Shown here one piece after another: positions 20,661 through 59,300 of a stretch of DNA of 64,000 nt. A program made the translations under genes and the position numbers. The notes under the pieces are model-generated. The model made no database searches and was not told the DNA's origin. It saw only the letters and a list, made by a program, of their open reading frames with translations. This stretch comes from an uncultured Candidatus Marinamargulisbacteria bacterium (GTDB lineage Bacteria > Margulisbacteria > Riflemargulisbacteria > GWF2-35-9 > DYQY01), in the NCBI GenBank assembly GCA_964643725.1, contig CAZXTL010000002.1, positions 5,574 to 69,573 of the forward strand. The letters are read 5' to 3'. Within the stretch, counting starts at the first letter, position 1; the number at the start of each line of letters is the position of its first letter.

Positions 20661-20784
20661 TATCTATCTCCTCCTCTTCTCCTAAACCGTAGAACAAAGA
20701 GACACTTTAAGTTTCATTTAAAGTACTTTTTATCCTCGGTAGGGTTATTTTAAGCATTACGCCCCTACTGTCTTCGGCTAAAAA
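20661..20784 (-). promoter_or_regulatory. Possible L10 (rplJ) leader / autoregulatory region
   Basis: 124-nt untranslated gap between rplA and rplJ containing GC-rich stems (…CCGAAGACAGTAGGGGCG…) in an AT-rich context. The L10(L12)4 autoregulation target sits at this position in many bacteria. Confidence 0.3.
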
Positions 20785-21486
20785 CTATGCTATCGTCGAA
20801 GAATCAATATCTATACCAGGACTCATTGTCGCAGCTAGATATGTTCCTTTCAAATAAACTCCTTTTGCAGAAGCTGGTTTCACCTTCATTAAAATATCAT
20901 AAACAGCAATAATATTCTCTTTTAACTTTTGCAAATCAAAAGACATTTTGCCGACTGGCATATGAACTATTCCAAATTTATCAGCACGGTATTCTACCTT
21001 ACCCTTTCTAAATTCATCAATAGCTTTCTTTATATCAAAAGTTATCGTACCAGTTTTTGGCGAAGGCATTAAACCTCTCTTACCTAAAACTTTACCTAAC
21101 TGTCCAACCTCTTTCATCATATCAGGGGTTGTTAGTAAAATATCAAAATCTACCCATCCTGCTTTAATTTTATCAGCCAATTCTTCACTGCCAAAAACGT
21201 CTGCTCCAGCCTTTTCAGCTTCAGTAACTTTTTCTCCTTTAGCAATTACAACTATTTTAATTTTCTTACCAACACCATGAGGAAGTATCAATGTTCCTCT
21301 AACTTGCTGATCACTCTGTCTTACGTCTACACCTAACTTAACAGTAAATTCAACTGTCTCATCAAACTTTGCTGGTGTCATCTTTTTCAAACAATCTATT
21401 CCTTCATCTAAAGAATATAGTGGTTTTTCTATTGAAGCTGCGTTCTGATTATATACTTTTGAATATTTTTTCATTATGTCCTCCAT
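20785..21486 (-). CDS. rplA: 50S ribosomal protein L1
   Basis: 233 aa; L1-like; operon position. Confidence 0.94.
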   Translation of the reverse strand: MEDIMKKYSKVYNQNAASIEKPLYSLDEGIDCLKKMTPAKFDETVEFTVKLGVDVRQSDQQVRGTLILPHGVGKKIKIVVIAKGEKVTEAEKAGADVFGSEELADKIKAGWVDFDILLTTPDMMKEVGQLGKVLGKRGLMPSPKTGTITFDIKKAIDEFRKGKVEYRADKFGIVHMPVGKMSFDLQKLKENIIAVYDILMKVKPASAKGVYLKGTYLAATMSPGIDIDSSTIA

Positions 21487-22785: not shown

Positions 22786-22862
<77 letters not shown>

Positions 22863-23959: not shown

Positions 23960-25027
23960 ATGGATATAACTGACCTAGTCACACAAGAACCAATACACAA
24001 AAAAGAACTTCCTGATTTTTCTAATCTTGTATTTGGAAAACATTATACGGATAGAATGCTTACTATAAAATATTCAGCAGATAAAGGCTGGTACGATGCA
24101 AAAATAGAAGAATTTGCTAATTTTAGCTTTTCTCCAGCAATGACAAGTCTACATTATTCACAGGAAATTTTTGAGGGACTCAAGGCTTACTTCAGAGAAG
24201 ATGGAAATATAGGGTTATTCAGACCAAAAGAAAACTTCTTAAGAATGAATAGTAGTGCCAGAAGAATGTGTATGCCAGAACTGGATATAGATTTCTGCTT
24301 GAAAGCACTATATAAACTGATAAAACTGGAAAGAAAATGGATACCTAGTCTGGACAGTTCCAGTCTTTACATACGACCAACCATGATAGGAACTGATGCC
24401 ATGATTGGACATAAAGCATCACAAGATTATCTATTTTATACCATCCTTAGCCCAGTTGGCGCTTACTACCAAACAAAGGGTGGACTTAGAATAATAGCAG
24501 AAGACAAATATGTTCGTGCTGTTGCTGGAGGAACCGGAGAAGCTAAAACTGGTGGGAACTATGCTGCTTCTTTGTTAGCCAATATAGAAGCTCAACAAAA
24601 AGGTTACTCTCAAGTACTTTGGCTTGATGGAGTTCATAGAAAATTCGCAGAAGAAGTTGGCACAATGAACATATTCTTTGTATATAAAGACAAATTGAAA
24701 ACTCCTGCACTCAATGGAAGCATCTTGCCTGGAATAACCAGAAAAAGTGTTATTGCACTTGCTGAGCATCTTGGAATAGAAGTTGAAGAATGTGCGCTAG
24801 ATATAAATGATATAGTTGCAGATATAGATGCTGGGAAAATAACTGAATGTTTCGGCTCTGGAACAGCTGTTGTTATAACTCCTGTAAGTGTTATTGGATA
24901 TAAAGGTGCTGATCACAATATAAATTCTAGATTATCTGAAGGACTAACTGAAAGAATGTATAAAGAACTTACTGATATCCAATATGGAAAAACAGCTGAT
25001 CCATTTGGCTGGACGGTAGTTCTTTAA
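23960..25027 (+). CDS. ilvE: Branched-chain amino acid aminotransferase (class IV PLP-dependent)
   Basis: 355 aa; long-form BCAT blocks (…YIRPTMIGTD…, …GTGEAKTGGNYAASL…, …ITPVSVIGY…). Confidence 0.9.
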   Translation: MDITDLVTQEPIHKKELPDFSNLVFGKHYTDRMLTIKYSADKGWYDAKIEEFANFSFSPAMTSLHYSQEIFEGLKAYFREDGNIGLFRPKENFLRMNSSARRMCMPELDIDFCLKALYKLIKLERKWIPSLDSSSLYIRPTMIGTDAMIGHKASQDYLFYTILSPVGAYYQTKGGLRIIAEDKYVRAVAGGTGEAKTGGNYAASLLANIEAQQKGYSQVLWLDGVHRKFAEEVGTMNIFFVYKDKLKTPALNGSILPGITRKSVIALAEHLGIEVEECALDINDIVADIDAGKITECFGSGTAVVITPVSVIGYKGADHNINSRLSEGLTERMYKELTDIQYGKTADPFGWTVVL

Positions 25028-25028
25028 C

Positions 25029-25135
25029 GTTACTTTTGCTTGATCAAAAGTAACCAAAAATCAAGACCATTCTCGGTTACACCTTCGAAGATAGCCACTA
25101 AGCTCCTCTGTCGCTAAGTGGAGCTATACCGCAAA
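25029..25135 (+). repeat. Copy A of a duplicated ~105-nt two-hairpin element (candidate sRNA or repeat)
   Basis: GTTACTTTTGCTTGATCAAAAGTAAC (perfect 10-bp stem hairpin) … TTCGAAG … AGCCACTAAGCTCCTCTGTCGCTAAGTGGA (second hairpin). The same blocks recur at 31311-31417. Confidence 0.6.
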
Positions 25136-25486
25136 ACTCACTCCCTATAATCTGGGATATTTCTAGTCACCTTGTGAGCTACTGCCATTTTCATAATATA
25201 GCACTGAACCTGCAGGAGCATTGCAACCTCTCCCAGCAGAAGATATAAATATTTTCTTAGCAGTTGAACTTGCTGCTAACCCTCTCCTTTTCATAATTGA
25301 AATGGAGAGGGTGACGGCACTAATCTTCATTGAAATACACTTATGGCTTCCGTGGGTGAGGTTCGTCGAAATATCTAAGATTTTATATTTGCTCAATTGC
25401 GCTGGGACACTGTTTTAAGAATATTAATTTGTTATAGTGATAATTTCAAAATGGTCGTTACCTCAACGGAGCAAGGGAAATTATAT

Positions 25487-26596
25487 TTATTCCCAAACTA
25501 TATCGTAACTTACACTCCTTCCTTTACCATCATTTTGTTTTAGAATATTAATCTCAACTAAATATTGAAGCTCCCTAGTAGCAGTTGCTCTACTTATGCC
25601 TGTAATTGATGCGTATTTCTTATTAGTCATACCACCTTCAAATCCATTCTTGCCAGCATCTAAAAGTTTATTGATAACTTTTTTGTTTCTATCATTTAGT
25701 TCTAGTTGAGTGTGTTTATACCAGAAGCTAGATTTTTCTAATATGAGCGTTATTAATCCCTCTGACCTTTCAATCGATCTTGCAAAACAATCCAAAAACC
25801 AACTTATCCAAGAAGTAATATCAACGGTTCCTTTTTGTGAATTTTCTAGAATATCATAATAGTTCTTTCTGTCTGCGTTTATTTGAGACGACATGCTGTA
25901 ATACCTCATAGACTGGTTGTCATCTTGAGCTAATGCCATATCTGTTAATGCTCTGGCTATTCTGCCGTTTCCATCATCAAAAGGGTGTATTCCTACAAAC
26001 CAGAAATGAGTTATTGCAGCTCTTAATAATCCATCAAGATGATCACAACTATTTTTCCACCAATCAATAAATACTGTCATAGCTTCATCAACTTGATCTG
26101 CTGGAATGGCTTCATAATGAATTGTTTCCTTGCCATATCGTCCAGATATTACTTGCATTTGTTCATCTCTCCATTTACCAACCTTGATTTTATGCATTCC
26201 TGAATATCCAGCAGGGAAAAGGGCAGCATGCCATCCAAAAAGTCTATCTTTTGTTAACGAAGATTTATGTTTTTGGGTTGCATCCAGCAATACATCTATA
26301 AGTCCGTCAGTGTGTCGGTCAACTAAAAATCCTGCATCAGGTAATCCCAGTTTTCTGGCTATTGAAGATTTTACTGAGTCACGATTTAGGGTTTCCCCCT
26401 CGATAGCTGATGTTGTTATTGCTTCTTCAAATAAAATATCAACTTGAGCTTGCTGTTCATATTGAAACCCCATCGAGGATATTTTTGCTAATAGCTTTCC
26501 TTGCAGAAAACGACAATGACTTATTTGCTTTAAAAGAACTTTGTCATCCCATGTAAAGTTAGGCCATTCTTTGTTTTGCCATATATAATTAGTCAA
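25487..26596 (-). CDS. Fic family protein with C-terminal winged-helix domain
   Basis: 369 aa; canonical Fic motif HPFDDGNGRIARAL; C-terminal HTH-like …SITGISRATATRELQYLVE…. Confidence 0.9.
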   Translation of the reverse strand: MTNYIWQNKEWPNFTWDDKVLLKQISHCRFLQGKLLAKISSMGFQYEQQAQVDILFEEAITTSAIEGETLNRDSVKSSIARKLGLPDAGFLVDRHTDGLIDVLLDATQKHKSSLTKDRLFGWHAALFPAGYSGMHKIKVGKWRDEQMQVISGRYGKETIHYEAIPADQVDEAMTVFIDWWKNSCDHLDGLLRAAITHFWFVGIHPFDDGNGRIARALTDMALAQDDNQSMRYYSMSSQINADRKNYYDILENSQKGTVDITSWISWFLDCFARSIERSEGLITLILEKSSFWYKHTQLELNDRNKKVINKLLDAGKNGFEGGMTNKKYASITGISRATATRELQYLVEINILKQNDGKGRSVSYDIVWE

Positions 26597-26660
26597 TTAA
26601 TTCCCCTAATCGCCTCATATTTTGATTCAATTATGCCATATAATCGCCTCATATGCAAAG

Positions 26661-26948
26661 TTACACTAATCTTATTTCACCAGCATTAAATTTATGGATG
26701 AGTCCTTGTATTAAATTTTGATATGGAATACCAAGCTCTAAACTCTTTTTTTTGATATCATACAAATCATCTTCGGACACTCTTAAAGAAATGGCTATTT
26801 TAGCCTTTTGTGTAAACTCAACATATTTTTTCAACTCTTCAGCTCTTTTGTTTAAATTTTTAGAGCTATTCCACTCGTTATTCTCATAACTTTCTAAAAT
26901 ATCTTTTTCATAATTATCTAAATTTGTTTTCTTAGCCATTCTTATCAC
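26661..26948 (-). CDS. brnA: BrnA-like antitoxin (ribbon-helix-helix)
   Basis: 95 aa; …AISLRVSEDDLYDIKKKSLELGIPYQNLIQGLIHKF… matches the BrnA family pattern; overlaps the upstream toxin gene by 4 nt (ATGA). Confidence 0.65.
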   Translation of the reverse strand: MIRMAKKTNLDNYEKDILESYENNEWNSSKNLNKRAEELKKYVEFTQKAKIAISLRVSEDDLYDIKKKSLELGIPYQNLIQGLIHKFNAGEIRLV

Positions 26949-27235
26949 CCCTTAAATTTTTTATTCATTTTTCTGCTTGGTATTATTGTTTTCAAAAATA
27001 TCTCATCTTCTGTTTCTACATAAGGAACTATATGAATATACCCCTTAATATCAACCACTAACAATCTTTGTCCCTTGTATTTATCTTGATTGGGATGCTC
27101 CATATCATCTAAGATTTTGTTTTCGCTGATTGATAAAATTATATCCTCAAACCCAACACCTCGAGATTCTTTTAATAAACTATTCTTTTCTTTATCAAAT
27201 CTAATATGTTTCACATATATACCTCGTATATACAT
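26945..27235 (-). CDS. brnT: BrnT-like toxin (DUF497-type ribonuclease toxin)
   Basis: 96 aa; …FDKEKNSLLKESRGVGFEDI… …LLVVDIKGYIHIVPYVETEDEIFLKTIIPSRKMNKK resembles the BrnT fold signature; translationally coupled to brnA. Confidence 0.6.
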   Translation of the reverse strand: MYIRGIYVKHIRFDKEKNSLLKESRGVGFEDIILSISENKILDDMEHPNQDKYKGQRLLVVDIKGYIHIVPYVETEDEIFLKTIIPSRKMNKKFKG

Positions 27236-27297
27236 AGTATACCACTAAATTTATTTACTAAACATGCAATTTTATTATTAAGGGCTCATTGCCGCCC

Positions 27298-27831
27298 TTA
27301 AAGAGTGGAGTCTACTTCTCTAATCATCGGCAACAACTTTGATTCATTTACCTCTGGCTTGTCATGATGTTTAGCAACAACCTGTAACACTTCATTATCA
27401 GTACAGCCTACATCTAACAACATTTTTCCTCCTATGAGACCATGCGTATTCAAAATAAATAATTTGCGTCTAAAAGATAATCTAGAATTCTTCTTGGCAA
27501 GAGAATTAATAAACTTTCCATCTTTAATAGAACTTAATAAAACATAAGCTATCCTGTAATTTAAACCTATGTCTGCTGAGCTTTTGCCAATATCATGCAA
27601 TAAAGCTACTCTGGCCATTTTTGGTCTATCTATCCAGTCTTTCTCTAAAGTTTTTTCTAAAGCTTTCTGTGCCACCATTAAGGCATGTCGTTGATCAAAA
27701 CCTTTCATCCTAAAAAATAGTATCTGTTCCTGATGGTTAAGATACTTTCTAACAAACTCTACCTCCAAATAAGATATTTTGAACTTACGAGCTGCAATAA
27801 ATTGTTTGATTCTATATAGAGGTCTAGCCAT
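27298..27831 (-). CDS. HD-domain phosphohydrolase (YqeK-like)
   Basis: 177 aa; H…(HALMVAQ) and LLHDIGK metal-binding HD motif; …KHHDKP… distal His/Asp. Confidence 0.7.
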   Translation of the reverse strand: MARPLYRIKQFIAARKFKISYLEVEFVRKYLNHQEQILFFRMKGFDQRHALMVAQKALEKTLEKDWIDRPKMARVALLHDIGKSSADIGLNYRIAYVLLSSIKDGKFINSLAKKNSRLSFRRKLFILNTHGLIGGKMLLDVGCTDNEVLQVVAKHHDKPEVNESKLLPMIREVDSTL

Positions 27832-31157: not shown

Positions 31158-31310
31158 TATCTAATAGTTTTTCAAAAAAGGGATTTCTTGACTTTATTTT
31201 TTTATATAATTCCTTTCCAAAAACAACCATTTTTTATTAGTGAGTCTAACTAGCTATAATAAAAGTAAACTTTTAAATTCTTTATGTTAAGGTCTCTTTA
31301 TTATCTTATT

Positions 31311-31417
31311 GTTACTTTTGCTTGATCAAAAGTAACGCAATGCAACTCTTGCCTACGGCTTCGAGGACAGCCACTAAGCTCCTGTGTCGCTAAGTGGACT
31401 GTTACAAGAGTGCTCCA
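31311..31417 (+). repeat. Copy B of the duplicated two-hairpin element
   Basis: Identical 26-nt GTTACTTTTGCTTGATCAAAAGTAAC, then TTCGAGG and AGCCACTAAGCTCCTGTGTCGCTAAGTGGA. It is embedded in a 740-nt ORF-free region between purM and ribF. Confidence 0.6.
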
Positions 31418-31753
31418 ACTCGCTGCGTGACTTTTGGGTAATTTTCTTCGCACCACTGCGTGGAGCTAAATGCTCGAAAATTACTACAAAGGCATCTTGC
31501 TCAAATTACGCACTCAGTTTAAAACGAATAAATATATATTTAATAAAATAAAAAATACTGTCCCGTAGCACTCTGAACGAATATAAAATCGTAGGTATTT
31601 CGAAATCATTTAACGGTGTTAGCTAAGAAAAAGACAATGTCGCAATGCTCCCGCAGGTTCAAAATTAAATAATAAAGATGGCAGTACGCTTACAGGGTGA
31701 TAAGAAATACCCCAGATTTTAATGAAGAGAATTTGCGTAGGGACGAGGGGATT

Positions 31754-31778
31754 AATAAGGGGCGCGGAGCCCCTTATT
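31754..31778. repeat. GC-core palindromic hairpin downstream of ribF
   Basis: AATAAGGGGC-GCGGA-GCCCCTTATT, a perfect 10-bp stem. No U-tract on either strand, so it is not a canonical intrinsic terminator. Confidence 0.5.
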
Positions 31779-31837
31779 GAAAAAGAATTTTAAAGTTTAC
31801 TTTTAATAAGCCAAGTTAGTGCAACTAACTAATAAAA

Positions 31838-32728
31838 TTATTTTATAGACTTAACATCTTTAGCTATTTGTTCCTTTAGCGCTTCAAAGGAAACAAACTT
31901 TTGAGATGGACGCAAAAACTTAGAAAAAGATAACTTAACTTTTTGCCCATAAAGATCTCCTGAAAAATCAATCAAAAACGCTTCTAACTCCAAGTGATCT
32001 TCTCTGTCGAGTAAACTTATTGCTACTTTATATTCTCTATTATCGTTCAAAAGAACCTTACCTGCATAAACCCCAGGCATCGGTAACTGTTTCTTATCAT
32101 CAATAACTAGGTTAATTGTTGGGAAGCCTAAGGTTCTACCAACTCCCTTACCTTTCACCACTTCTGAAATACAAAAGAACTCATACCCAAGCATACTATT
32201 AGCTTTGTTTAACCTACCAGAAATAAGATGTTCTCTAACTGTTGTACTCTTGGCTATTTCGCCATCAACTAAAACCGGAGGAATTACAATAAGCTCGACA
32301 TCTAGATTTCTTTTATGGATATATTGTTCTATCTCTAGAACTCCACCCTCAAGTCTTCTGCCAAACCGAAAATCCCAACCAACAATAATCTTCTTTGGTG
32401 CAAAAGTTTCCTCTATAAACTGCATAAAATAATCAGCAGATTGAGAAGCAAACCTTTTATCAAATTCTACAAATAAAAAATTCTTAAATAAACTCTTCTT
32501 TTCTTCCAACACAGTAAGACATTTTATATCTTTGGAAAACAATGCTTTCGGTAAAGGCCAAAACGCCAGTGCATAATCTGCTCTTTTAAGTAATTCAATG
32601 TGCCCTAAATGACAACCATCAAACGCACCAATGGCAATAGCTTTACCTTTAATGGTTGTGAGATTAACTCCCTGATTATATTTACTTAAAAGTTTGCTAA
32701 ACTTTTCATTCACTTTTATTTTCCTCAT
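31838..32728 (-). CDS. ribF: Bifunctional riboflavin kinase / FAD synthetase
   Basis: 296 aa; N-terminal adenylyltransferase motif GAFDGCHLGH and a C-terminal riboflavin kinase region. Confidence 0.88.
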   Translation of the reverse strand: MRKIKVNEKFSKLLSKYNQGVNLTTIKGKAIAIGAFDGCHLGHIELLKRADYALAFWPLPKALFSKDIKCLTVLEEKKSLFKNFLFVEFDKRFASQSADYFMQFIEETFAPKKIIVGWDFRFGRRLEGGVLEIEQYIHKRNLDVELIVIPPVLVDGEIAKSTTVREHLISGRLNKANSMLGYEFFCISEVVKGKGVGRTLGFPTINLVIDDKKQLPMPGVYAGKVLLNDNREYKVAISLLDREDHLELEAFLIDFSGDLYGQKVKLSFSKFLRPSQKFVSFEALKEQIAKDVKSIK

Positions 32729-47452: not shown

Positions 47453-47605
47453 ATGGGAACATGGATAATTAAGCTTCCGCTCTTACTAATTCTATTTATC
47501 TTAATTTTTCTTTTAATAGGCTGTATCAGACAAGACATAAAAGCTAAACGACCTTTTTTTCTTAAAATAACCAATAAAGATAAAGTAAATTCAGTAGAAA
47601 AATAA
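47453..47605 (+). CDS. Small (50 aa) lipoprotein-like peptide upstream of the YcaO pair
   Basis: Not in the ORF track (<60 aa). AAGGAG RBS at 47441-47446, 6 nt before ATG 47453. MGTWIIKLPLLLILFILIFLLIGCIRQDIKAKRPFFLKITNKDKVNSVEK: hydrophobic signal with LIGC lipobox and a basic 27-aa mature part. Confidence 0.45.
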   Translation: MGTWIIKLPLLLILFILIFLLIGCIRQDIKAKRPFFLKITNKDKVNSVEK

Positions 47606-47621
47606 CAAGGATACCTTTCTA

Positions 47622-49121
47622 ATGGTTGATTTTATACTCAAAGAAAATAATGATGGTCCTTTTGACTTAAAATCAACGCTAAAAACATATACATATGATC
47701 AAGATAAATACATCCATCCTCAAGTCACGTATGCAAAAACATACAGAAAAGTTAAAAGAAATGTAGAAAACGCCAAACTAATTATAATAACTGAAGAAAA
47801 GCCAGTATTTAGTTATGACTTTTCTAATGAGAAAATAACTACACATGGTAAAGGCGTAACAATGGAACAAGCCAAATCCAGTGCAATCATGGAATTTAGT
47901 GAAAGATATAGCTGGTTAAACTTTGACTATAAAAATGCTCCAGGATACATGGTAGCCTCCTTTAATGAACTGGCAGAACAAGAAGACATGTCATACATAG
48001 AACCTGGATTTGTTTTCCACAACTTCGAAAAATCTAAAGACTTTGAAGTTCACATAAAATCAATCCCCATAAAGTGGATAGACGGTTATTCTCTTACACA
48101 AAAAAAAACAATCAAATACCCTCTTAGTTGGATAAATTATATGCATGGCTCAAACGGTATCTGTACTGGAAACATAAAAGAAGAAGCTATTGTCCAAGGA
48201 ATATGTGAAGTTATTGAAAGAAATAATTGTAACAAATTTGTAAAAAATTATAAAAAAGAAAAGATAAATATTATCGATAACGAAAGTATTGAGCATGAAG
48301 GCTTTAAAGAAATGCTAGATTTCTTTAAAAAAGAACATACAGAGCTATATCTTCTCCATATTCCTACTGGATGTGACCTGCCAGTTATCATGGCTATTTG
48401 CATAAATGAGAAATTACAACCTCAAGTTCTTAGCCAAGGAATTGGTTATGGCTGTCATACAGACCCAGTAAAAGCTGTACTACGTGCTGTCACAGAATAT
48501 TTTCAGGCCAGAACTGGCATTATTGAGAAACAAAAAAAAGTACCATTTGACATGGCAATAGCTAAAAGTAATTCTATATTCAGCTTAGATTTAGACATAG
48601 ACTGGATTGTAAAAAACAATAAACTTATCCACATTAAAGATATAAAAAACCTTTCTTCAAATGATTTTAAAGAAGAAATTGAAACTCTTATTAATATTAC
48701 TAAACAAAGTGGGCTTGAAATTCTTATCGCAAGCAAAATGCACCCCAAACTTGAAATCCCCGTCTACCGAGTTTTTTCCCCTCAAGCAGAGCCACCAGTT
48801 AATTTATGTTCCAACTTTCATGTCCCAGAATACATAGTAGCTCAAATGTATTATGAAGCAGGAATGATTGATAAATCAGAAGAATTTATCCAAGAAAATC
48901 GTGAAAGAATATGCTGTTTTCCTTATTCGCTTTTTGATAATTTTGCTGCACCTATGTTTGGCGAAGAATTTTCAAATTTAGCAAAAAATACCATAAAAAG
49001 ATCTAAAATTAGTGCCGATCAAATTTGCAGGAAGGATTACTTATTACTCCATGTAAATGTTGCATCTGTTGGGAAAGACGCTGAAGATAATTTCAGAAGG
49101 TTTTCAAGTATTTTTAAATAA
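47622..49121 (+). CDS. ycaO: YcaO-domain protein (copy 1)
   Basis: 499 aa. YcaO ATP-binding signatures parallel E. coli YcaO: THGKGVTMEQAKSSAIMEFSERYS vs TNGKGATKKAALASALGEYFERLS, and SNGICTGNIKEEAIVQGICEVIERN vs SNGMSAGNTRNEARVQGLSEVFERY. Confidence 0.85.
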   Translation: MVDFILKENNDGPFDLKSTLKTYTYDQDKYIHPQVTYAKTYRKVKRNVENAKLIIITEEKPVFSYDFSNEKITTHGKGVTMEQAKSSAIMEFSERYSWLNFDYKNAPGYMVASFNELAEQEDMSYIEPGFVFHNFEKSKDFEVHIKSIPIKWIDGYSLTQKKTIKYPLSWINYMHGSNGICTGNIKEEAIVQGICEVIERNNCNKFVKNYKKEKINIIDNESIEHEGFKEMLDFFKKEHTELYLLHIPTGCDLPVIMAICINEKLQPQVLSQGIGYGCHTDPVKAVLRAVTEYFQARTGIIEKQKKVPFDMAIAKSNSIFSLDLDIDWIVKNNKLIHIKDIKNLSSNDFKEEIETLINITKQSGLEILIASKMHPKLEIPVYRVFSPQAEPPVNLCSNFHVPEYIVAQMYYEAGMIDKSEEFIQENRERICCFPYSLFDNFAAPMFGEEFSNLAKNTIKRSKISADQICRKDYLLLHVNVASVGKDAEDNFRRFSSIFK

Positions 49122-49141
49122 TTAAGAAAGGTTATCTTTTT

Positions 49142-50641
49142 GTGGTTGATTTTATACTCAAAGAAAATAATGATGGTCCTTTTGATTTAAAGTCTACTCA
49201 AAAGACATACACTTATGATCAAGATAAATTCATCCACCCTCAAATCACCTATGCAAAAACTTTTAATAAAGTAAAAAGATCAATAGAAAACACAAAACTA
49301 ATTACAATTTCTGAAGAAAGACCAGTATTTAGTTATGACTTCTCAAATGGAACAATAACTTCACACGGCAAAGGGTTAACCAAAGATCAAGCTAAGTCTA
49401 GTGCAATCATGGAATTCTGTGAAAGATATAGTTGGCTAAACTTTGACTATAAAAATGCTCCTGGATATATAGTAACCTCATTTAACGAACTTGCTAAAAA
49501 CGAAAATATGTCCTACATTGAACCTTGCTTTGTTTTCCATGGATTTGAAAGATCAAAAGACTTTGAACCTCACATAAAATCTATCCCTACAAAGTGGATA
49601 GACGGTTTTTCGCTAACAAATAACAAAATAATCAAATACCCTCTTAGTTGGATAAACTATATGCAAGGATCTAACGGAATATGTACTGGCAACATAAAAG
49701 AAGAAGCCATTGTCCAGGGAATCTGTGAAGTTATTGAAAGAAATAACTGTAATAAATTTATAGGAAACTATAAAAATGAAAAAATAAATATTATCGAAAA
49801 CGAAAGTATTGAACATGAAGGTTTTATAGAAATCCTAAATTTCTTAAAGAAAGAAAAAACGGAACTTTATCTTTTACATATCCCTACAGGATGCGACATG
49901 CCTGTTGTCATGGCTTATTGCATAAACGATAATTTCGAAGCTCATCTTAGACAAGTCATAGGTTATGGCTGTCATACAGACCCTACCAAAGCTGTATTTC
50001 GTGCTGTAACCGAATATTTCCAAGCCAGAACTGGACTTATTGAAAAACAAAAAAATGTACCACTTAGGAAGGCTTTGGCTAAAGGTAATTTCCTGTTTGT
50101 CTTAGATTTAGATATAGACTGGATTGTCAAAAACAATCGACATATCCCAATTAAGGATATAAAGGATATTTCTTCCAATGATTTTAAAGAAGAAATCAAT
50201 ACTCTTATCAACATCACTAAACAATACGGGATGGAAATTCTAATTGCCAGCAAAAACCATCCCAAACTTAATATCCCAGTCTATAAAGTTTTCTCCCCTC
50301 AAGCTGAACCACCTGTTAATTTATGTGCAAATGTTCATATTCCAGAGTGGATAATAGCTCAAATGTATTACGAAGCAGGCATGATTGATAAATCAGATGA
50401 CTTTATTCAAAAAAATAGAAATAAATTTTCAAGTTTTGATAATTCTGTTTTTGATAATTTTGCTGAACCAATATTTGGCAAAACTATTTCTGATTTAGCA
50501 AAGAAAGCAATAAAAACCATAAAAATTAACGCTGACATGTTATGTAAAAAAGATTACTTATTAGTTCTTGCCGATGTTGCAGCTGTTGATAAAAATGCAG
50601 AAGAAAATATCAAAAAATTCCATAAATTTCAATCTAGATAG
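49142..50641 (+). CDS. ycaO: YcaO-domain protein (copy 2, tandem paralog; GTG start)
   Basis: 499 aa, collinear and about 70% identical to copy 1 with the same YcaO motifs; its first ~45 nt are nearly identical at the DNA level; GTG start at 49142. Confidence 0.85.
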   Translation: MVDFILKENNDGPFDLKSTQKTYTYDQDKFIHPQITYAKTFNKVKRSIENTKLITISEERPVFSYDFSNGTITSHGKGLTKDQAKSSAIMEFCERYSWLNFDYKNAPGYIVTSFNELAKNENMSYIEPCFVFHGFERSKDFEPHIKSIPTKWIDGFSLTNNKIIKYPLSWINYMQGSNGICTGNIKEEAIVQGICEVIERNNCNKFIGNYKNEKINIIENESIEHEGFIEILNFLKKEKTELYLLHIPTGCDMPVVMAYCINDNFEAHLRQVIGYGCHTDPTKAVFRAVTEYFQARTGLIEKQKNVPLRKALAKGNFLFVLDLDIDWIVKNNRHIPIKDIKDISSNDFKEEINTLINITKQYGMEILIASKNHPKLNIPVYKVFSPQAEPPVNLCANVHIPEWIIAQMYYEAGMIDKSDDFIQKNRNKFSSFDNSVFDNFAEPIFGKTISDLAKKAIKTIKINADMLCKKDYLLVLADVAAVDKNAEENIKKFHKFQSR

Positions 50642-53312: not shown

Positions 53313-56300
53313 TTATTTCCTTACTCCATCAGCTTCATTAAGTCCACTTAAAATAAGCTCATTTCCGCGCTTAAGAATTGTTGTTCCTTTGCTTAATGAG
53401 CTCTCCACTCTTTCCCTTAATCTATCCCTTGTTTCCTTTGACAAATATCCAACAGCTTGACCCACCGCATCGCCTAAGGTAGGCAAAGATATTATAAGAT
53501 ACTCTAATGTACTATCATAGCTTTCCCTAAGTTTAGCTAAACCTAATCTTGCCTCATTAGAATTTTGAGCTAACTTAGCTTCATACAAAGCCAATATCTT
53601 TAGAGCTGCAACAAACTTTTCTTGAGGATCGTTATTGCTATTAATAAAACTTTCAATTAACTCCTTAACCATTACTTCACCTTTATTATTTAAAACTAAT
53701 AAACTATTTACATTTGATGAAAAAGGTTGAAACGTATCTTGTCCCCACGAACTTAACTTTAAGTATGCTGTTATATACTCCTGTAAATAACTGCTGACTT
53801 TCTCATTATCAATTAAGGCTGGGCTCTTCTCAAGTTGCCTCAGCACAGACTTAACTGCTTCATTTCTTAAGTCTTTTGACAATACCTCTATAGGCAGATT
53901 ACTTATTAACAAATCTGTACCTAAAGGCCTAATTGATGCTGTTGCTGATTCCAGAGGATTTACTCGATTGCTATTCGTTATTATTCTTCTTAAATCTGAA
54001 AAGTTTTGAAGGAATATTTGGCTAGTTGCTCCTTCTTTCACAGGCAAATTTAATCTTGAAATAACATTGGAAACTATACTTATTTGCTTTTGCTGTGACT
54101 CTTTCCTTACTGATAAAATCATTAGTGGAATAATTTCCTTGGCTACATCCTGTTCAAGTTGACCTGAAGAAATTAGCACATCAATTAATGCCAATGACTT
54201 ACTCACAACGATCTCAGAATCCAAAGATGACATCTTCTTTATTACATCACAAATATTTTTAACAAAACTACTTTTCTCTTTATCAGAAAGCTTCATGCTT
54301 ACCACGATTTGCTCTGCCAAATCAACAAACTGCTCAAGGTCTTGAATCGCTGTCTCTTGAGTAATATACCCTAGAATCACAGATCTGTTATCCTCAGAAA
54401 TTTGAGGACTTTTTAGAATATAATTTAAAATTTTCTCAGGTGACTTAAGCAAAATCAATTCTTTGATTTTCTCTTCTGGAGTACTCTGACTGCTTAATAC
54501 CTCCGCTATCTTCTGCTCTTTTCCTATAGTCATTTGTGCATTACTAATAAGGCTACTTAATGAGCTAAGTTTTTCAGAAAGAGTTTTCTTCTGAGATATA
54601 GTTAATTTTGATAAATTAACATCTTTTGATAAAGTATCAATTGTCTTTTGTAATTCATCATAGTCCAAAGACTTGCTGTCCTTAAATTTATTCAATTCAG
54701 TTTTTAAATCTGTACTAATCGATATTACTCCTAGCTTAACAATAACTTCAATATTCTCAACAATGTATCTTGTTTTATTAGTATAATTTTTATCAATTGC
54801 TTCATAAATATTATCAAGCAACTTGAGGACTCCTGAGACATTTTTTGCAATAATATCCTCAGGATTGAGTCCACCTTGTCCCTTTTCTGGGATAAAATTA
54901 TCTGACACTATATTCTCAACATTTGCTTGTATTTGTTGGTACTGATTAGCAACATTAACTGCTGGCAATTGGTTAATATTAAATTGTTCTGCTATTACTT
55001 TAATGACCTTAGTTTTCTCTAAAACATTCTCTTCATCTTTACCTATATTCAAAGAAGTAAATGGAATAGAAAGAGCCATATTTATTATCTTATTTATTTC
55101 TTTCTCACTTCTGGGTATGGGGCTATATTTAATAAGCTCAAAAATATCAGGCATCTTTTCCTTGACTGACTCTTCTTTAATTGTGTCACTAGTAACCAAT
55201 TTCTCTAATAAACCCATCGCCTTAATTAATGCCTTATCTGCCTTATCTGTTGGCACTTGAGCTACTGCAAGCAACAACTCTTCTACTATCTGGATATGAT
55301 CCATTTTCTTAGCTATATCCTCCAAAATATCCATAGCTAATATTTGGAACTCAGCTTCATCTTTAATTTTGACCCTATCTTCTTGCAACAGATAACGAAT
55401 TAGTGCCTTACTGTTCTCTCTGCTAACTATCTGATCATTGAGCACCACAGAATTCTCTGTAACATATCGGACAACAGCGATTGGATTATCTAATGCTATT
55501 AACTTTTCTAACTTATCCTTAGCAGTAATATCACCACTGAAAATGTTAGACAACTGTCCATCTTTGCTCTTTGTAAGGCTTATTGTTTCCAGAGTAGTCT
55601 TAAGTGCAACTAGTGATTCTTGTAACTGAACCTTAATCTTAGGATCTTTTTCAGCTTTACTTAATTCTTTCAAAACCTCAACAACTTCCAATAATTTATT
55701 AATACTATCCTTACTCTTCAAATCACCTTTCCCAACCTCTATTATAAGTTTATTAAGTTGAGGAGATATAGGTAGCTGTTGCTGTATTTGTTCTAAAGAT
55801 TGTACTACTTTGCTAACTGCTTGTGTCTCTTCCTTGGCAACTTGTTCAACATTCTTCTTGCTATTATCTATAAAAGGAGAGTAAAAAGCCTCAATAACTT
55901 TCTGAATATTCTCCAATGATTGCAAGGTTGTAGTCTGCGTCTTCCTCACGATTTCTGATAACATTCCAGCATCTGTCTGCTTGGCTTTTGCTACTTGAGT
56001 ATCGATACCTTTGTTATCAATATTAATATTATTAATAACAGGAATCGTCGCATTTGATGATATCGCCACCGACGCGGCTGATTGTATCGTAGGATCTTCT
56101 TGTTTATTTGTTTGAATCTCTTGTGCATTTAACTGCTCAGAATTCTTTCTAATCTCAAGTACCTTTGCGTCATCAAGTCTTGCCCCAATTGTCTGAGATA
56201 ATACCTCATTAGGTTGCATTATTGGCTGTACCCTTCCCTGAACAGGAGTGGTAGGTGACACCACTGCTGGAGCTGCATCATTTATTGTTGTATCTTCTTG

Positions 56301-59300
56301 CTTTTTGGTTTGAACATCGTTAACTTTTAACTTCTCTAGCTTCAAATTTATCTCTGGCATTTGTTGGGAAATCATCTTTATAACAGATGTTTGAGCTAGA
56401 ACTTCCTTTGACTTATTAATATTGTCTAAAATGCTTGGATCAGACAATATGGCTAACATAACATTCAAAACTTCTTGATCCTTACGAGGCTTTGGGTTTT
56501 CCTTAAGAGCTTGAACTAATTGAGGAACTTGTTTCTTAACATCATCTGCCTTAACGATATCCTCTCTAACCATCTCTTCAAGTAAGACTATCCCTTTAAC
56601 TAACATCTGCTCAGATTTATTTTTTGACATCACTATTACTGATGATAGTTCTTTTACTATCTGCTCTTTTGAGATTACGCTACCCATATCTTTAAGTGCA
56701 TCCTTTACCAATACATTAAACTCATCAACATCCTTTGGTTTAACCTTATCTTCTTGTAATACATAACTCATCAATGCCTTTCGATTATTCTCACCAAACA
56801 ATGGTTCTTTCATTACAACAGGATTTTCCTTTACATATCTAACTACTGCGATTGGATTATTTATCGAATTTAAAAGTTCTATCTTTTCCTCAGGTGGTGC
56901 TGTGCTATTAAATATCTTCGCTAAGGCTCCATCCTTACTCTTCGTAAGACTTATTGTCTCTAGAGTTGTCTTTAGTTCAGTAAGAGCTTCTTGTATCTGA
57001 ACCTTTATCTTAGGATCCTTTTCAGACTTACTTAGTTCTTTTAATACCTCTACTACTTCCAATAATTTATTCATACTATCCTTACTCTTCAAATCACCTT
57101 TACTAATCTGAGTAATAAGTTCTGAGGAGATAGGCATTTGTTGTTTTATTTGTTCGAGAGATTTCACAATCTCCTTCACTGCTTCTTTTTCTTCCTTGTC
57201 AATTTGGGCTGAATCCCTTTTGCTCTTATCTACAAATGGATCATGAAAAGAATCTATTATCTGCTGTATAGAAGCTATTGCTAGCATTGTTGAAGGCTCT
57301 GTTACTTTTGGCCCTTCCCCTGCCATTGTCTGTTTTGCTTGAGCTACAACTGGAACGCTATTAACTTTTTGTGTCTGATTATTACTAACAGGTGAAACTG
57401 TAGCTCCTTGTGCTGCTGCTCCTGCTTGAACAGTTGTATCCTCGGAAGTATCCTCTGCCAGACTTTGTACAGTTGCCTGCAACTGAGCATCATTTCTCCT
57501 GTTTTTATTTTCTGTATCCAAAGATATCTTGCCGTCCTCAAAAATAGCTTGATCCTTGTGTTCTAAATTTACTTTAGCTCCTACAACCTCAAATCCACTA
57601 GTAGCGAGTGATGATTCTGCCTTCTTCATCTGCAAGGTTGTCAGCACACTACTTTCAGCATTATTTTGCCCTTGAGTAAGAGCAATATCATCCAAAACTT
57701 TCAGACCCTCAGCAGAAAAATCTATTCGATGTGTTCTTTTGTCAGTAGGAGTCGTAAATTCTGCGGAAATATGAGCCGGACTATTAGCATTAGAGTCTTT
57801 AGTAATAACAAACTGATAATTATCAATATTAAGTTCTTTAGCAATAGCTGCCATTAAAGCAATTATTCTATCGCAATCATTTTCATCTATTTCATATTTC
57901 TCTTTACTAAATTGAGTAAGTTTATCAACAATCTTTGCACGTACTGCTTGCATGTCTACTTTTCCATCTATTATAGAAGAGGTAACAGCTTCATTAACTG
58001 CCTTTTTAGCCTCATCAGCCAATGAGCTTTGGTTAATAACAGTTACATTTTTACTTTTCAAAAATATATTTTGAACCGCAAATGTAGTTAACGCTGTTAC
58101 TATTTGATTGCGTGTTAGTGGATCTGAAGCTGCTTTAGGCCCTGCCTTGTCAACCGCTCCAGGAACAACCTTAGTCTTAGCTATATCTCCAAACGCCTCT
58201 CTAATTGGTCCTTGGAGTGCCTCTCTCACTTGCGAAATAGAAAGGGCTGAACCTAAAACATCCAATGCCTGATTTATTACTGCTTGAAGCGCTACAGTTG
58301 GGTTACTGTTTATCCCTGCATTAATAGCTGAAAATCCAGAATTGCCAGCCCCGGATGACGTGCCCGCTTGTACTCCTTGTAAAACCTCATAGACCTTTGC
58401 TCTTTGCGAAATAGCATCGCTAATAAGTTTTTTAAGTAACATACTAGTTATTTCTGAATTAAATGACTTAAGTTTATCTTGAGCATCAAAAATGCCTGGT
58501 TCCTCTTTACCTGCGACAGAATCTATCTTTTGGTTAACGTCCTTTGGTGTTGCATTTGGTGCTGCATTTGGTGCTGCGTTTGGTGCTGCATTTGCTACTG
58601 CGTCTGTTACCGCTGGCGCTGCATTTGCTACTGCATCTGTTACCGCTGGCGCTGCTGTTGCGACTGCATCTGTTACCGCTGGTGCTGCATTTGCCACTGC
58701 TTCTGTTACTGCTGGTGCTGCTGTTGCGGTTGCGTCTGCTACTGCTGGTGCTGCTGTTGATAAAGCATCTGTTACTGCTACAGCTGCTGTTGCGACAGCG
58801 TTTCCTACTGTTACTGCGACATCTGCTAGCGCGCCTAGAATCCCGCCACCTCCTCCAGATGTTGCTGGTGCTGCTTTTGCTGGTGCTGGTGCAGATTGCG
58901 CTGCTGGTTTTGTTTCTGCTTTTGTTTCTGGTTTTGCGGCTGTTGCTTGTGCTTTATCCACAGATGTTGCTGATTGACCTTTAGTGCTCGGATCGTTGTA
59001 CTTTGCCTTTGCAATATCTATAAGAGCAGCTAAAACTAAATTCGCCATACTATCAAACATCGTTTTCATTCTCTCTGACATTTGTAAGGCAAAAGCAGAA
59101 TCTTCACTTGCAGCAGCATTACTTTGTATCTTACGTGATAAAGCATCACCAGAATTACCTGTACCAAAAGCCTTCTCGGCTTTAGCTTCCGCGTTAGCTC
59201 TAAATTCTTCTCTCGCTTTTTTCTCTACATAATAAGTCAAATATTCTTTTATTAAGTTTCTTATTAGATTCATTAAAATACTTGTTACTTTGGTACTTAA

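What the first reader, a model, noticed from the sequence alone, without database searches (positions are those of the whole stretch)
25029..25440. Duplicated ~105-nt two-hairpin element (copy A) after ilvE, followed by ~300 nt of ORF-poor sequence
Copy A and the copy at 31311-31417 share a perfect 26-nt palindromic hairpin (GTTACTTTTG-CTTGAT-CAAAAGTAAC), a TTCGARG box and a second hairpin (CCACTAAGC-N8-GCTAAGTGG). A variable ~25-nt spacer separates the conserved blocks.

Conserved stems around variable linkers is the signature of a structured RNA or a mobile repeat, not random duplication. Downstream, copy A contains GAACCTGCAGGAGCATTGC, the reverse complement of GCAATGCTCCCGCAGGTTC found downstream of copy B, so the two loci are related beyond the core element.

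The two copies bracket the Fic, BrnTA, HD and purHNM segment.
Basis: seen in the sequence. Interest (0 to 1): 0.6.

Follow-up and report, generated by a model that had tools for sequence, protein, structure and literature searches.

The report
Nested hairpin repeats bordering defence-gene insertions
The duplicated "two-hairpin element" is real, but it consists of two separate pieces of a patchwork of small hairpin-forming mobile repeats that were inserted right after stop codons next to anti-phage and toxin genes, and one piece, a 37-base hairpin motif, recurs almost unchanged in distant bacterial phyla.

Summary
In detail: both copies and the reverse-complement tails exist and are far beyond chance. 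The organism is a Candidatus Riflemargulisbacteria.

The "element" is not one unit. It is a mosaic of palindromic modules:
- **37-mer:** a 26-nt hairpin plus CAAAAATCAAG.
- **hp2:** a hairpin of about 55 nt that occurs at five different positions and in both orientations, once with a 5-bp target duplication.
- **Core:** a rod-like hairpin of about 115 nt, present in copy B only.
- **X:** a 3' module of about 200-300 nt, forward in B and inverted in A.

Close relatives have empty sites. B is a 637-nt insertion flanked by a 7-bp direct repeat just after the ribF stop. A is the edge of a 2.27-kb insertion (BrnTA plus a SoFic-like Fic) flanked by TTAA between the ilvE and HD stops. purHNM-HD between the copies is core genome, not cargo.

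The 37-mer also occurs in Bacteroidota, Fusobacteriota, Acinetobacter and Omnitrophota, capping unrelated rod-like repeats of 250-450 nt. Its stem, and a loop-to-flank pairing, both covary.

Best reading: non-autonomous mobile repeats resembling MITE, REPIN and BIME elements, moved by an unidentified enzyme. There is no Rfam match, and an RNA role is not excluded.

The parts
25024..25027 (.). TTAA containing the ilvE stop codon (TAA 25025-25027); left flank of the 2.27-kb inserted block
   Evidence: In L031 the HD and ilvE genes overlap tail to tail with nothing between them.
25029..25065 (+). Copy A of the 37-mer: the 26-nt hairpin (25029-25054) plus CAAAAATCAAG (25055-25065). The loop CTTGAT is complementary to ATCAAG.
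25074..25131 (+). Copy A of the hp2 module: closing CGGT/ACCG, the TTCGAAG box (25084-25090), a three-part stem with an A.A mismatch, and a 9-nt pyrimidine-rich loop
25134..25227 (-). X2 module, inverted relative to copy B (77% to 31639-31734; 91% to L009 5763-5852)
25226..25366 (.). 141-nt imperfect palindrome lying between X2 and X1. It replaces the ~38-nt linker seen in B and L009. The strain variant L002 keeps the arms and central stem but has a different loop.
25366..25415 (-). X1 module, inverted relative to copy B
   Evidence: (I6)
25403..25486 (-). Conserved 3' flank of the cargo cassettes, 98% identical to L009 6614-6697. It contains the ~36-nt site ATAATTTCCCTTGCTCCGTTGAGG... that flanks the Fic cassette as a direct repeat in L041.
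25487..26596 (-). Cargo: DUF4172-Fic protein (PADLOC SoFic, 4.7e-46). Present or absent between strains.
26661..27235 (-). Cargo: BrnA (26661-26948) and BrnT (26945-27235), a toxin-antitoxin pair
27298..27301 (.). TTAA containing the HD stop codon (reverse strand); right flank of the inserted block 25028-27297
31194..31200 (.). TTATTTT, left copy of the 7-bp direct repeat flanking the B insertion
   Evidence: Empty sites are in L029, L030 and L031.
31201..31837 (+). Copy B as a whole: a 637-nt insertion between the ribF stop and the purM promoter region
31230..31283 (+). Left terminal inverted repeat of B, containing AAAAGTAAACTTTT
   Evidence: (I1)
31311..31336 (+). Copy B of the 26-nt hairpin. 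Its tail is interrupted by hp2, and the hexamer is displaced to TACAAG at 31403-31408.
31345..31411 (+). Copy B of hp2, closed by ACTCTTG/CAAGAGT. It is an insertion relative to L008, L009, L018 and L019, which lack it at this position.
31405..31522 (+). Core module: a rod-like imperfect hairpin (GAGTGC...GCACTC) followed by TTAA. It is absent from copy A.
31558..31740 (+). X1 and X2 modules in forward orientation
31754..31778 (+). GC hairpin AATAAGGGGC-gcgga-GCCCCTTATT. L009 keeps it through a compensatory C-G to U-A change.
31782..31835 (+). Right terminal inverted repeat of B, abutting the ribF stop codon
   Evidence: (I1)
31838..31844 (.). TTATTTT, right copy of the 7-bp direct repeat. It includes the ribF stop codon on the reverse strand.

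Best explanation
**What it is.** Copies A and B are two independent insertions. Both are assembled from a family of small, non-coding, hairpin-forming mobile repeat modules. The family is non-autonomous and resembles MITE, REPIN and BIME elements.

**Modules.**
1. A 37-nt terminal motif: a 10-bp hairpin whose 6-nt loop is complementary to a hexamer 5 nt downstream.
2. A ~55-nt hairpin, hp2, which inserts on its own into other modules.
3. A ~115-nt rod-like 'core'.
4. A 200-300-nt 'X' module, which recurs as the 3' flank of cargo genes.

**Shown.**
- The modules are gained and lost between close relatives.
- They nest inside one another.
- They occur in both orientations.
- They land within 0-3 nt of stop codons.
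- They border TA and anti-phage cargo: BrnTA, SoFic, PDC-S31, AbiLi and GajA.

**Inferred.**
- An enzyme encoded elsewhere in the genome recognises the folded or symmetric 37-mer and moves or recombines the DNA. Candidates are a HUH/Y1-type or other transposase or recombinase.
- Homology between dispersed copies then allows deletions, inversions and swapping of cargo.
- Any effect on the upstream mRNA, such as a 3'-end hairpin, would be secondary.
For: **Presence/absence polymorphism.**
- The ribF-purM spacer is 94 nt in L029/L030 and 111 nt in L031, against 740 nt in the window.
- HD and ilvE overlap in L031, against 2.27 kb of inserted DNA in the window.
- Fic is absent in L002/L044.

**Direct repeats at the junctions.**
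- TTATTTT flanks B. This 7-mer has a frequency of 5.5e-4 per site.
- TTAA lies on both sides of the A block.
- TGAGC flanks an hp2 copy inserted in reverse inside X1 of L009. X1 without the insertion carries a single TGAGC.

**Independent module positions.** hp2 is found after the palindrome (B, L020), upstream of inverted X2 (A), inside the 3' part of the core (L013, L006) and inside X1 (L009, reversed).

**Decay and rearrangement.**
- L017 and L018 are truncated copies.
- L032 has lost the interval between two AAAAGTAA repeats.
- The loop is flipped in L012 copy 2.

**Multi-copy behaviour.** Contigs end inside the repeats in L003, L023, L024 and L028.

**Gene context.** No protein gene is consistently linked across 15+ loci.

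**Two-ended copies with inverted hairpin ends.**
- Ilyobacter: ~440 nt, 7 places in the record.
- Acinetobacter baumannii: ~300 nt, 8-10 copies per chromosome.
- Mucilaginibacter.

**Covariation.**
- In the 37-mer, 7 of 16 pairs carry double changes, and 0 of 500 shuffles reach the observed value.
- In hp2, 6 of 12 pairs carry double changes.
- All changes are Watson-Crick to Watson-Crick, and both strands fold comparably well.

**Cargo is defence-related**.
Against: - **No enzyme found.** No transposase or recombinase was identified. The only Y1 transposase seen (L032) is an IS200 with unrelated hairpins.
- **Inconsistent flanking repeats.** Their lengths differ (7, 5 and 4 bp), and the two-ended Ilyobacter and Acinetobacter copies show none. 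A single mechanism is therefore not established, and TTAA may simply be what selection for two intact stop codons leaves behind.
- **Unusual conservation.** Near-identity of a 37-mer across phyla is atypical for REPs or MITEs, which are usually lineage-specific.
- **Loop-to-flank pairing.** This covarying pairing is not a described feature of transposon ends, and it could point to an RNA or ssDNA pseudoknot.
- **Orientation bias.** About 12 of 17 copies are co-directional with the upstream gene. That would also fit a role in transcripts.
- **Unknown copy number.** The number of copies in the window's own genome is not known.
Confidence: 0.55

Rival explanations
1. **Structured RNA.** The 37-mer plus the following rod would be transcribed, either as the 3' UTR of the upstream gene or as an sRNA. 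The hairpin and loop-flank pairing would form a pseudoknot or a two-state switch. That structure would protect or process the transcript end, or bind a conserved RNA-binding protein.
For: - Two interleaved helices covary, including the loop with the downstream hexamer: CTTGAT/ATCAAG, CTTGAC/GTCAAG, AAAGAT/ATCTT, AAGGAT/ATCCT and CTTGAA/TTCAAG.
- The hp2 stems, the GC hairpin and the internal hairpins of the Acinetobacter element show compensatory changes.
- The palindrome starts 1-3 nt after a co-directional stop codon in the window, L009, L019 and L038, and about 12 of 17 copies are co-oriented with the upstream gene.
- Folding z-score is -4.9.
Against: - There is no Rfam match at permissive thresholds.
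- There are no G-U intermediates and no strand asymmetry in folding.
- The same modules occur in both orientations relative to each other and to genes: X in A versus B, and hp2 in L009.
- With 0-nt loops and a 5-nt linker across a 10-bp stem, the two helices cannot coexist as a classical H-type pseudoknot. This is inference from geometry.
- Promoter and terminator scans are at chance level.
- Copies are dispensable in close relatives.
Confidence: 0.2
2. **Recombination sites of a cassette system.** The modules, especially X, the ~36-nt site and the 37-mer, would be att-like sites at which a site-specific recombinase inserts and exchanges defence or TA gene cassettes downstream of housekeeping genes. 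The logic would be integron-like.
For: - X recurs as the 3' flank after PDC-S31, after BrnTA and after Fic.
- In L041 the Fic cassette is flanked by direct repeats of a ~36-nt site. That site is single where Fic is absent.
- The same ilvE-proximal locus holds different cargo in five strain types.
- The ribF stop is occupied in two lineages, in opposite orientations.
- The hairpin has a 10-6-10 layout like a recombinase core site.
Against: - No integrase or recombinase lies next to any locus.
- The hairpin polarity (GTT...AAC at the base) is the reverse of integron attC R''/R' boxes, and hp2 lacks AAC/GTT boxes.
- Many copies carry no cargo and sit between ordinary genes in Bacteroidota and Acinetobacter.
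- Two direct copies 6 kb apart around purHNM would be hazardous substrates for a recombinase.
Confidence: 0.15
3. **Composite unit.** The two copies would be the ends of one composite transposon or a segmental duplication that carries Fic, BrnTA, HD and purHNM.
For: The shared blocks are in direct orientation 6.3 kb apart.
Against: - In relatives, ribF-purM-purN-purH-HD-ilvE is contiguous without either copy.
- B alone is missing in L029/L030.
- A and B have their own flanking repeats.
- Only ~95 nt are collinear between A and B. The tails are inverted, and the core is absent from A.
Confidence: 0.02
4. **Ordinary terminators.** The hairpins would be intrinsic transcription terminators of ilvE and ribF.
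For: They are stable hairpins directly after stop codons.
Against: - No U-tract follows the hairpins, and the terminator scan finds none at the palindrome on the relevant strand.
- Generic terminators do not explain 37-nt identity across phyla or the covarying loop-flank pairing.
- Relatives do without them.
Confidence: 0.05

Closest known systems
REP / REPIN / BIME elements of proteobacteria (mobilised by RAYT, TnpA-REP)
   Same: - Short extragenic palindromes that sit just after stop codons.
- Stems kept by compensatory changes, with conserved unpaired bases.
- Organised as mosaics of several motifs in alternating orientation.
- Doublets in inverted orientation, as in the two-ended Ilyobacter and Acinetobacter copies.
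- No gene of their own and no consistent target duplication (background from PMC2817692, PMC3733652 and PMC8266576 abstracts).
   Different: - There is no GTAG or CGTC head. The ends read GTTAC...GTAAC, and PMC3733652 mentions no such tag.
- The hairpin is nearly identical across phyla, whereas REPs are lineage-specific.
- The loop pairs with a flanking hexamer.
- The spacers between the two ends are 250-400 nt of rod-like sequence.
- No RAYT was found, and copy number appears low.
MITEs with nesting, such as Correia, ERIC and the cyanobacterial small dispersed repeats (the last from my own knowledge)
   Same: - Miniature, non-coding elements with terminal inverted repeats (B: 54-nt arms).
- Flanking direct repeats: 7 bp for B and 5 bp for hp2.
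- Insertion polymorphism between strains.
- One repeat inserted into another.
- Fold-back secondary structure (review PMC10969869).
   Different: - No parent IS with matching ends is known.
- The lengths of the flanking repeats are inconsistent between modules.
- The pal+core unit has no terminal inverted repeat.
- The elements carry or border cargo genes.
IS200/IS605-derived palindrome-associated elements (PATEs)
   Same: - Hairpins at the ends.
- No terminal inverted repeat in the pal+core unit.
- A tetranucleotide (TTAA) next to both ends in several copies.
- Co-orientation with genes.
- A Y1 transposase exists in the lineage.
   Different: - The two-ended copies are symmetric (inverted), whereas IS200/IS605 ends lie on one strand.
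- The hairpin sits 1-2 nt from TTAA, leaving no room for a guide segment.
- The IS200 in L032 has unrelated hairpins.
Integron attC sites and gene cassettes
   Same: - Promoter-plus-ORF cargo, often TA or defence genes, followed by a recurring structured site.
- Conserved structure with variable sequence and unpaired bases.
- Cassette content that differs between strains.
   Different: - No integrase, and no R''/R' (RYYYAAC/GTTRRRY) boxes in the right polarity.
- X is 200-300 nt, longer than attC.
- The modules also occur without any cassette.

Membership tests
REP/REPIN (RAYT-associated) | Conserved GTAG or CGTC tetranucleotide at one end of the palindrome | tested here: not met
   All hairpins start GTTAC/TTAC and end GTAAC/GTAA. 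The survey paper lists no such tag.
REP/REPIN (RAYT-associated) | A RAYT (TnpA-REP) gene in the genome, usually flanked by REPs | tested here: inconclusive
   None lies near the 20+ loci. The only Y1 protein found scores as IS200 (141.5 bits) and not as REP_Tyr_transpos (25.4 bits, cut-off 80). Whole genomes could not be searched.
REP/REPIN (RAYT-associated) | High copy number (tens to hundreds per genome), extragenic | tested here: inconclusive
   All copies are extragenic. Counts are 2 in 64 kb here, 7 places in the Ilyobacter replicon and 8-10 per A. baumannii chromosome. No genome-wide count exists for the window's organism.
REP/REPIN (RAYT-associated) | Imperfect palindrome whose stem is kept by compensatory change | tested here: met
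   In the 37-mer stem, 4 of 10 pairs carry double changes. In hp2, 6 of 12 pairs do, alongside a conserved A.A mismatch.
MITE | Terminal inverted repeats | tested here: met
   B has arms at 31230-31283 and 31782-31835, 76% complementary. The Ilyobacter, Acinetobacter and Mucilaginibacter copies have inverted hairpin-containing ends. This is not met for the Margulisbacteria pal+core unit, which is one-ended.
MITE | Target-site duplication of fixed length | tested here: inconclusive
   The repeats seen are 7 bp (B), 5 bp (hp2 in L009) and TTAA (the A block and L019). None was seen at the Ilyobacter or Acinetobacter copies.
MITE | Insertion polymorphism (filled and empty sites) | tested here: met
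MITE | A parent autonomous IS with matching ends | not testable with these tools
   No ISfinder-type library was available. The palindrome was absent from phage contigs and from E. coli genomes.
Known structured RNA family (Rfam 15) | Match to a curated covariance model | tested here: not met
   There were no hits at the elements, at gathering thresholds or at E up to 5-10.
Integron attC | R'' RYYYAAC ... R' GTTRRRY boxes at the base of the hairpin, and an adjacent intI | tested here: not met
   The polarity is reversed in the palindrome, the boxes are absent from hp2, and no integrase lies in the flanks.
IS200/IS605-derived PATE | Both end hairpins on the same strand, insertion 3' of a fixed tetra- or pentanucleotide, no duplication | tested here: inconclusive
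   TTAA lies 1-2 nt before the palindrome in A, L019 and L020, and 2-4 nt after the core in 7 copies. The background probability is 0.046 per site. However, the two-ended copies are symmetric.

The most novel reading that the evidence does not exclude
The 37-mer would be the recognition module of a still-unidentified, very widely distributed nucleic-acid enzyme or RNA-binding system.
- The motif has invariant ACTTTT...AAAAGT arms and a covarying loop-to-flank pairing.
- It is conserved from Margulisbacteria to Bacteroidota, Fusobacteriota and Acinetobacter.
- The hairpin-capped rods it heads would be a new class of mobile non-coding element.
- That class would seed and reshuffle defence-gene islands directly behind stop codons.
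Probability: 0.2. Interest if true: 0.8.

Novelty: new variant of a known kind. Interest (0 to 1): 0.55.

Why it matters
**If the mobile-repeat reading holds,** this locus shows how an uncultured phylum (Riflemargulisbacteria) builds hypervariable defence and TA islands. Small hairpin repeats land at stop codons, nest in each other, and provide the homology or sites at which cargo is swapped.

**The wider point is the 37-mer.**
- Its two interleaved helices both covary.
- It occurs in at least five phyla, on otherwise unrelated repeats.
- That degree of conservation implies a shared, unknown recognition partner.
- The motif occurs in culturable, genetically tractable bacteria (Acinetobacter baumannii, Ilyobacter polytropus, Mucilaginibacter), so the partner and the mechanism can be tested directly.

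**Practical consequence.** These repeats break metagenome assemblies and can be mistaken for regulatory RNAs.

Tried and rejected
- **Rfam.** Searches of the window, of 15 related loci and of the Acinetobacter, Ilyobacter and Sphingobacterium copies found nothing at the elements.
- **Phage and plasmid BLAST of copy B.** No match.
- **Viral contig scans.** Scans for the palindrome, hp2 (N9), the core and a relaxed 37-mer all found nothing. It returned only chance matches inside a phage terminase-like gene, L014/L015.
- **Literature.** A search for the palindrome sequence gave no hits. Searches on Acinetobacter sRNAs, MITEs and REPs, and the papers read, did not mention this motif.
- **Linked transposase or integrase.** Flanking genes in 20+ loci are unrelated housekeeping or defence genes.
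- **ORF274 of L009 as a candidate transposase.** It is a PADLOC PDC-S31 defence candidate.
- **IS200 in L032 as the mobilising enzyme.** Its end hairpins are unrelated.
- **Promoter and terminator scans.** At chance level.
- **Strand asymmetry of folding, to separate RNA from DNA.** None was found.
- **tRNA-like or T-loop reading of TTCGARG, hammerhead-like reading of X1, and attC, dif or IHF-site readings of the palindrome.** These were considered from the sequence and dropped because the defining boxes or polarity are missing.
- **Covariation in the core.** The seven available sequences are almost invariant, so they are uninformative.

Full report
**1. Observation**

- The 26-nt palindrome GTTACTTTTG-CTTGAT-CAAAAGTAAC lies at 25029-25054 and 31311-31336. 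No other copy exists in the window even at 3 mismatches, and none is expected by chance.
- The second conserved block lies at 25094-25122 and 31370-31398.

Three details need correcting.
- The loop of hairpin 2 is 9 nt, not 8.
- Its stem carries a conserved A.A mismatch and continues past a small bulge into an outer helix.
- The 19-mer in the tails is reverse-complementary with one mismatch. It is only the tip of about 96 + 45-90 nt of inverted homology.

**2. Organism and setting**

RibF homologues name the lineage as Candidatus Riflemargulisbacteria. Exact-protein look-ups recover the same locus from several metagenomes.

- Copy A starts 1 nt after the ilvE stop codon.
- Reading along the plus strand, copy A is followed by a DUF4172-Fic gene, BrnA/BrnT, an HD protein and purH-purN-purM, all on the minus strand.
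- Copy B lies between purM and the ribF stop.

**3. The 'element' is a mosaic of separable modules**

Scanning public genomes and metagenomes for the palindrome gave 15 loci. Aligning them shows the following.

- **(a) The 37-mer.** The palindrome is almost always followed by CAAAAATCAAG.
- **(b) The core.** In Margulisbacteria and Omnitrophota the 37-mer is followed directly by a ~115-nt 'core' (CAAGAGTGCTCC...GCACTC). Copy B has the core. Copy A lacks it.
It is absent from most copies and sits at different positions:
  - between the 37-mer and the core in B and L020;
  - inside the 3' part of the core in L013 and L006;
  - next to inverted X2 in A;
  - inside X1, reversed, in L009. There it is flanked by a 5-bp duplication, TGAGC, of a sequence that is single in X1 copies without the insertion.
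- **(d) The X module.** The tails (X1, X2 and a GC hairpin) are forward in B, L008 and L009 and inverted in A.
- **(e) Extra pieces.** A carries a further 141-nt palindrome between X2 and X1. B as a whole is bounded by 54-nt inverted repeats.

**4. Both copies are insertions**

- *Site B.* Genomes with 92% and 86% RibF identity have only 94 and 111 nt between ribF and purM, with no trace of B.
  - The 637 nt inserted in the window (31201-31837) are flanked by the direct repeat TTATTTT, which includes the ribF stop.
  - That 7-mer occurs at 5.5e-4 per site.
- *Site A.* In the 86% relative, HD and ilvE overlap tail to tail.
  - The window instead has 2,270 nt (25028-27297) containing BrnTA, Fic, X, hp2 and the 37-mer.
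  - TTAA lies on both sides and supplies both stop codons.
- *Same site, other lineage.* In a 79% relative the ribF stop is followed immediately by the same terminal repeat, a half-palindrome and the core, in the opposite orientation. An island follows, with a NYN protein and an IS200-disrupted GajA.
- *Consequence.* The purHNM-HD segment between the copies is core genome. The composite-unit idea is therefore rejected.

**5. Cargo and island variability**

- The genes next to the modules are defence or TA genes:
  - SoFic (4.7e-46);
  - PDC-S31 (6e-35), which lies between the core and X in L009;
  - AbiLi (3.6e-97) in L013;
  - GajA in L032;
  - BrnTA.
- The ilvE-proximal locus has at least five states in the population.
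- X recurs after each cargo unit.
- In L041 the Fic cassette is flanked by direct repeats of a ~36-nt site.
- In L041 and L042 the end next to ilvE has a different hairpin and no 37-mer or hp2.

**6. The 37-mer is conserved across phyla, with two covarying helices**

Exact or near-exact copies occur in the following taxa:
- Mucilaginibacter, Pedobacter and Sphingobacterium;
- an Omnitrophota MAG and Termititenax;
- Ilyobacter polytropus (7 places in the record);
- Aureibacter, inside a type I-D cas operon;
- Parabacteroides;
- in diverged form, about 8-10 copies per Acinetobacter baumannii chromosome.

In each lineage the 37-mer heads a different rod-like repeat of 100-450 nt. In Ilyobacter, Acinetobacter and Mucilaginibacter a second, inverted hairpin with the same ACTTT...AAAGT arms closes the other end.

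On ten distinct variants:
- 4 of 10 stem pairs and 3 of 6 loop-to-hexamer pairs show changes on both sides;
- 94% of cells are paired;
- 0 of 500 shuffles reach the observed value;
- slid controls collapse.

All changes are Watson-Crick to Watson-Crick.

One copy (L012 copy 2) has the loop flipped, which breaks the second helix. With no loop residues left over and a 5-nt linker, the two helices can hardly coexist as a classical pseudoknot. That is inference from geometry. They may instead be alternatives, or the pattern may reflect symmetric protein-binding half-sites that co-evolve.

**7. RNA or DNA?**

- Rfam has nothing.
- Folding is better than shuffles on both strands (z -4.9 and -3.6).
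- Alignment folds show no consistent strand preference.
- Promoter and terminator scans are at chance level.
- Modules function in either relative orientation.

These points, together with the insertion polymorphism and flanking repeats, favour a DNA-level mobile repeat. In favour of a transcript-level role:
- About 12 of 17 copies are co-oriented with the upstream gene.
- Many start 0-3 nt after its stop codon.
- The loop-to-flank covariation is unexplained by known transposon ends.

**8. Verdict**

The finding is real and is not a simple duplication. It is a patchwork of nested, non-autonomous hairpin repeats at two independent insertion sites, one of them the edge of a defence/TA island.

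REP/REPIN/BIME elements and nested MITEs are the nearest known kinds. Defining features of REPs are missing (the GTAG/CGTC tag and a RAYT), and no parent IS is known. I therefore file it as a new variant of a known kind rather than as a member of either family.

The cross-phylum 37-mer is the part that deserves follow-up.

Noticed in passing
L041 3588-3623 and 4946-4981; window 25450-25485; L002 ~2105-2140: The Fic (SoFic-like) cassette is flanked in L041 by direct repeats of a ~36-nt site, ATAATTTCCCTTGCTCCGTTGAGGGAACGACCATT. Strains without Fic have one copy, and the window keeps only the right-hand copy. This looks like an att-type cassette junction.
   Followed up: partly
L032 10600-11160: An IS200-type Y1 transposase gene (142 aa, NCBIfam transpos_IS200 1.5e-41) is bounded by its own hairpins (CCCTGTGGtcttgCCACGGGG). 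It is inserted at the 5' end of a Gabija GajA gene, in the island that follows ribF in a Termititenax-like genome.
   Followed up: partly
L037 3560-3840 (Aureibacter tunicatorum pAT6): A 37-mer-headed repeat sits in the 243-nt gap between cas5d and cas7d of a type I-D CRISPR-Cas operon, antisense to the cas genes.
   Followed up: no
L005 1143-1510 (Mucilaginibacter dorajii): The 3' half of the Sphingobacteriaceae-type repeat is amplified as a tandem array: 3.8 copies of 98 nt, 94% matches.
   Followed up: no
L003, L023, L024, L028 contig ends: Independent metagenome assemblies break inside the palindrome, hp2 or the core. This is as expected for multi-copy repeats, and it limits what MAGs can show about these loci.
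   Followed up: partly
window 58548-58826: A tandem array with a 33-nt period: 7 overlapping 114-nt copies at 61-100% identity. It is probably a repeat within a coding region.
   Followed up: no
window 47595-50244 and 55435-57121: Two pairs of ~80% identical direct repeats, spaced 1.5 kb and 1.37 kb apart. They are likely tandem paralogous genes.
   Followed up: no
window 20686-20795 and 22789-22862: Rfam finds an L10 ribosomal-protein leader and a tRNA gene upstream of the finding, within the conserved secE-nusG-rplKAJL-rpoB neighbourhood.
   Followed up: no
window 31201-31229: About 29 nt (tttatataattcctttccaaaaacaacca) lie between the left TTATTTT repeat and the left inverted repeat of B. 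Nothing matches them in the empty sites or in other copies, so their origin is unexplained.
   Followed up: no
hp2 loops: window 25104-25112, 31380-31388; L013, L006, L009, L020: The 9-nt loop of hp2 is always pyrimidine-rich on the strand carrying TTCGARG (UCCUCUGUC, UCCUGUGUC, UCGUUCCUC and similar). The CCUC-type motifs resemble anti-Shine-Dalgarno seeds of sRNAs. This was not tested.
   Followed up: no
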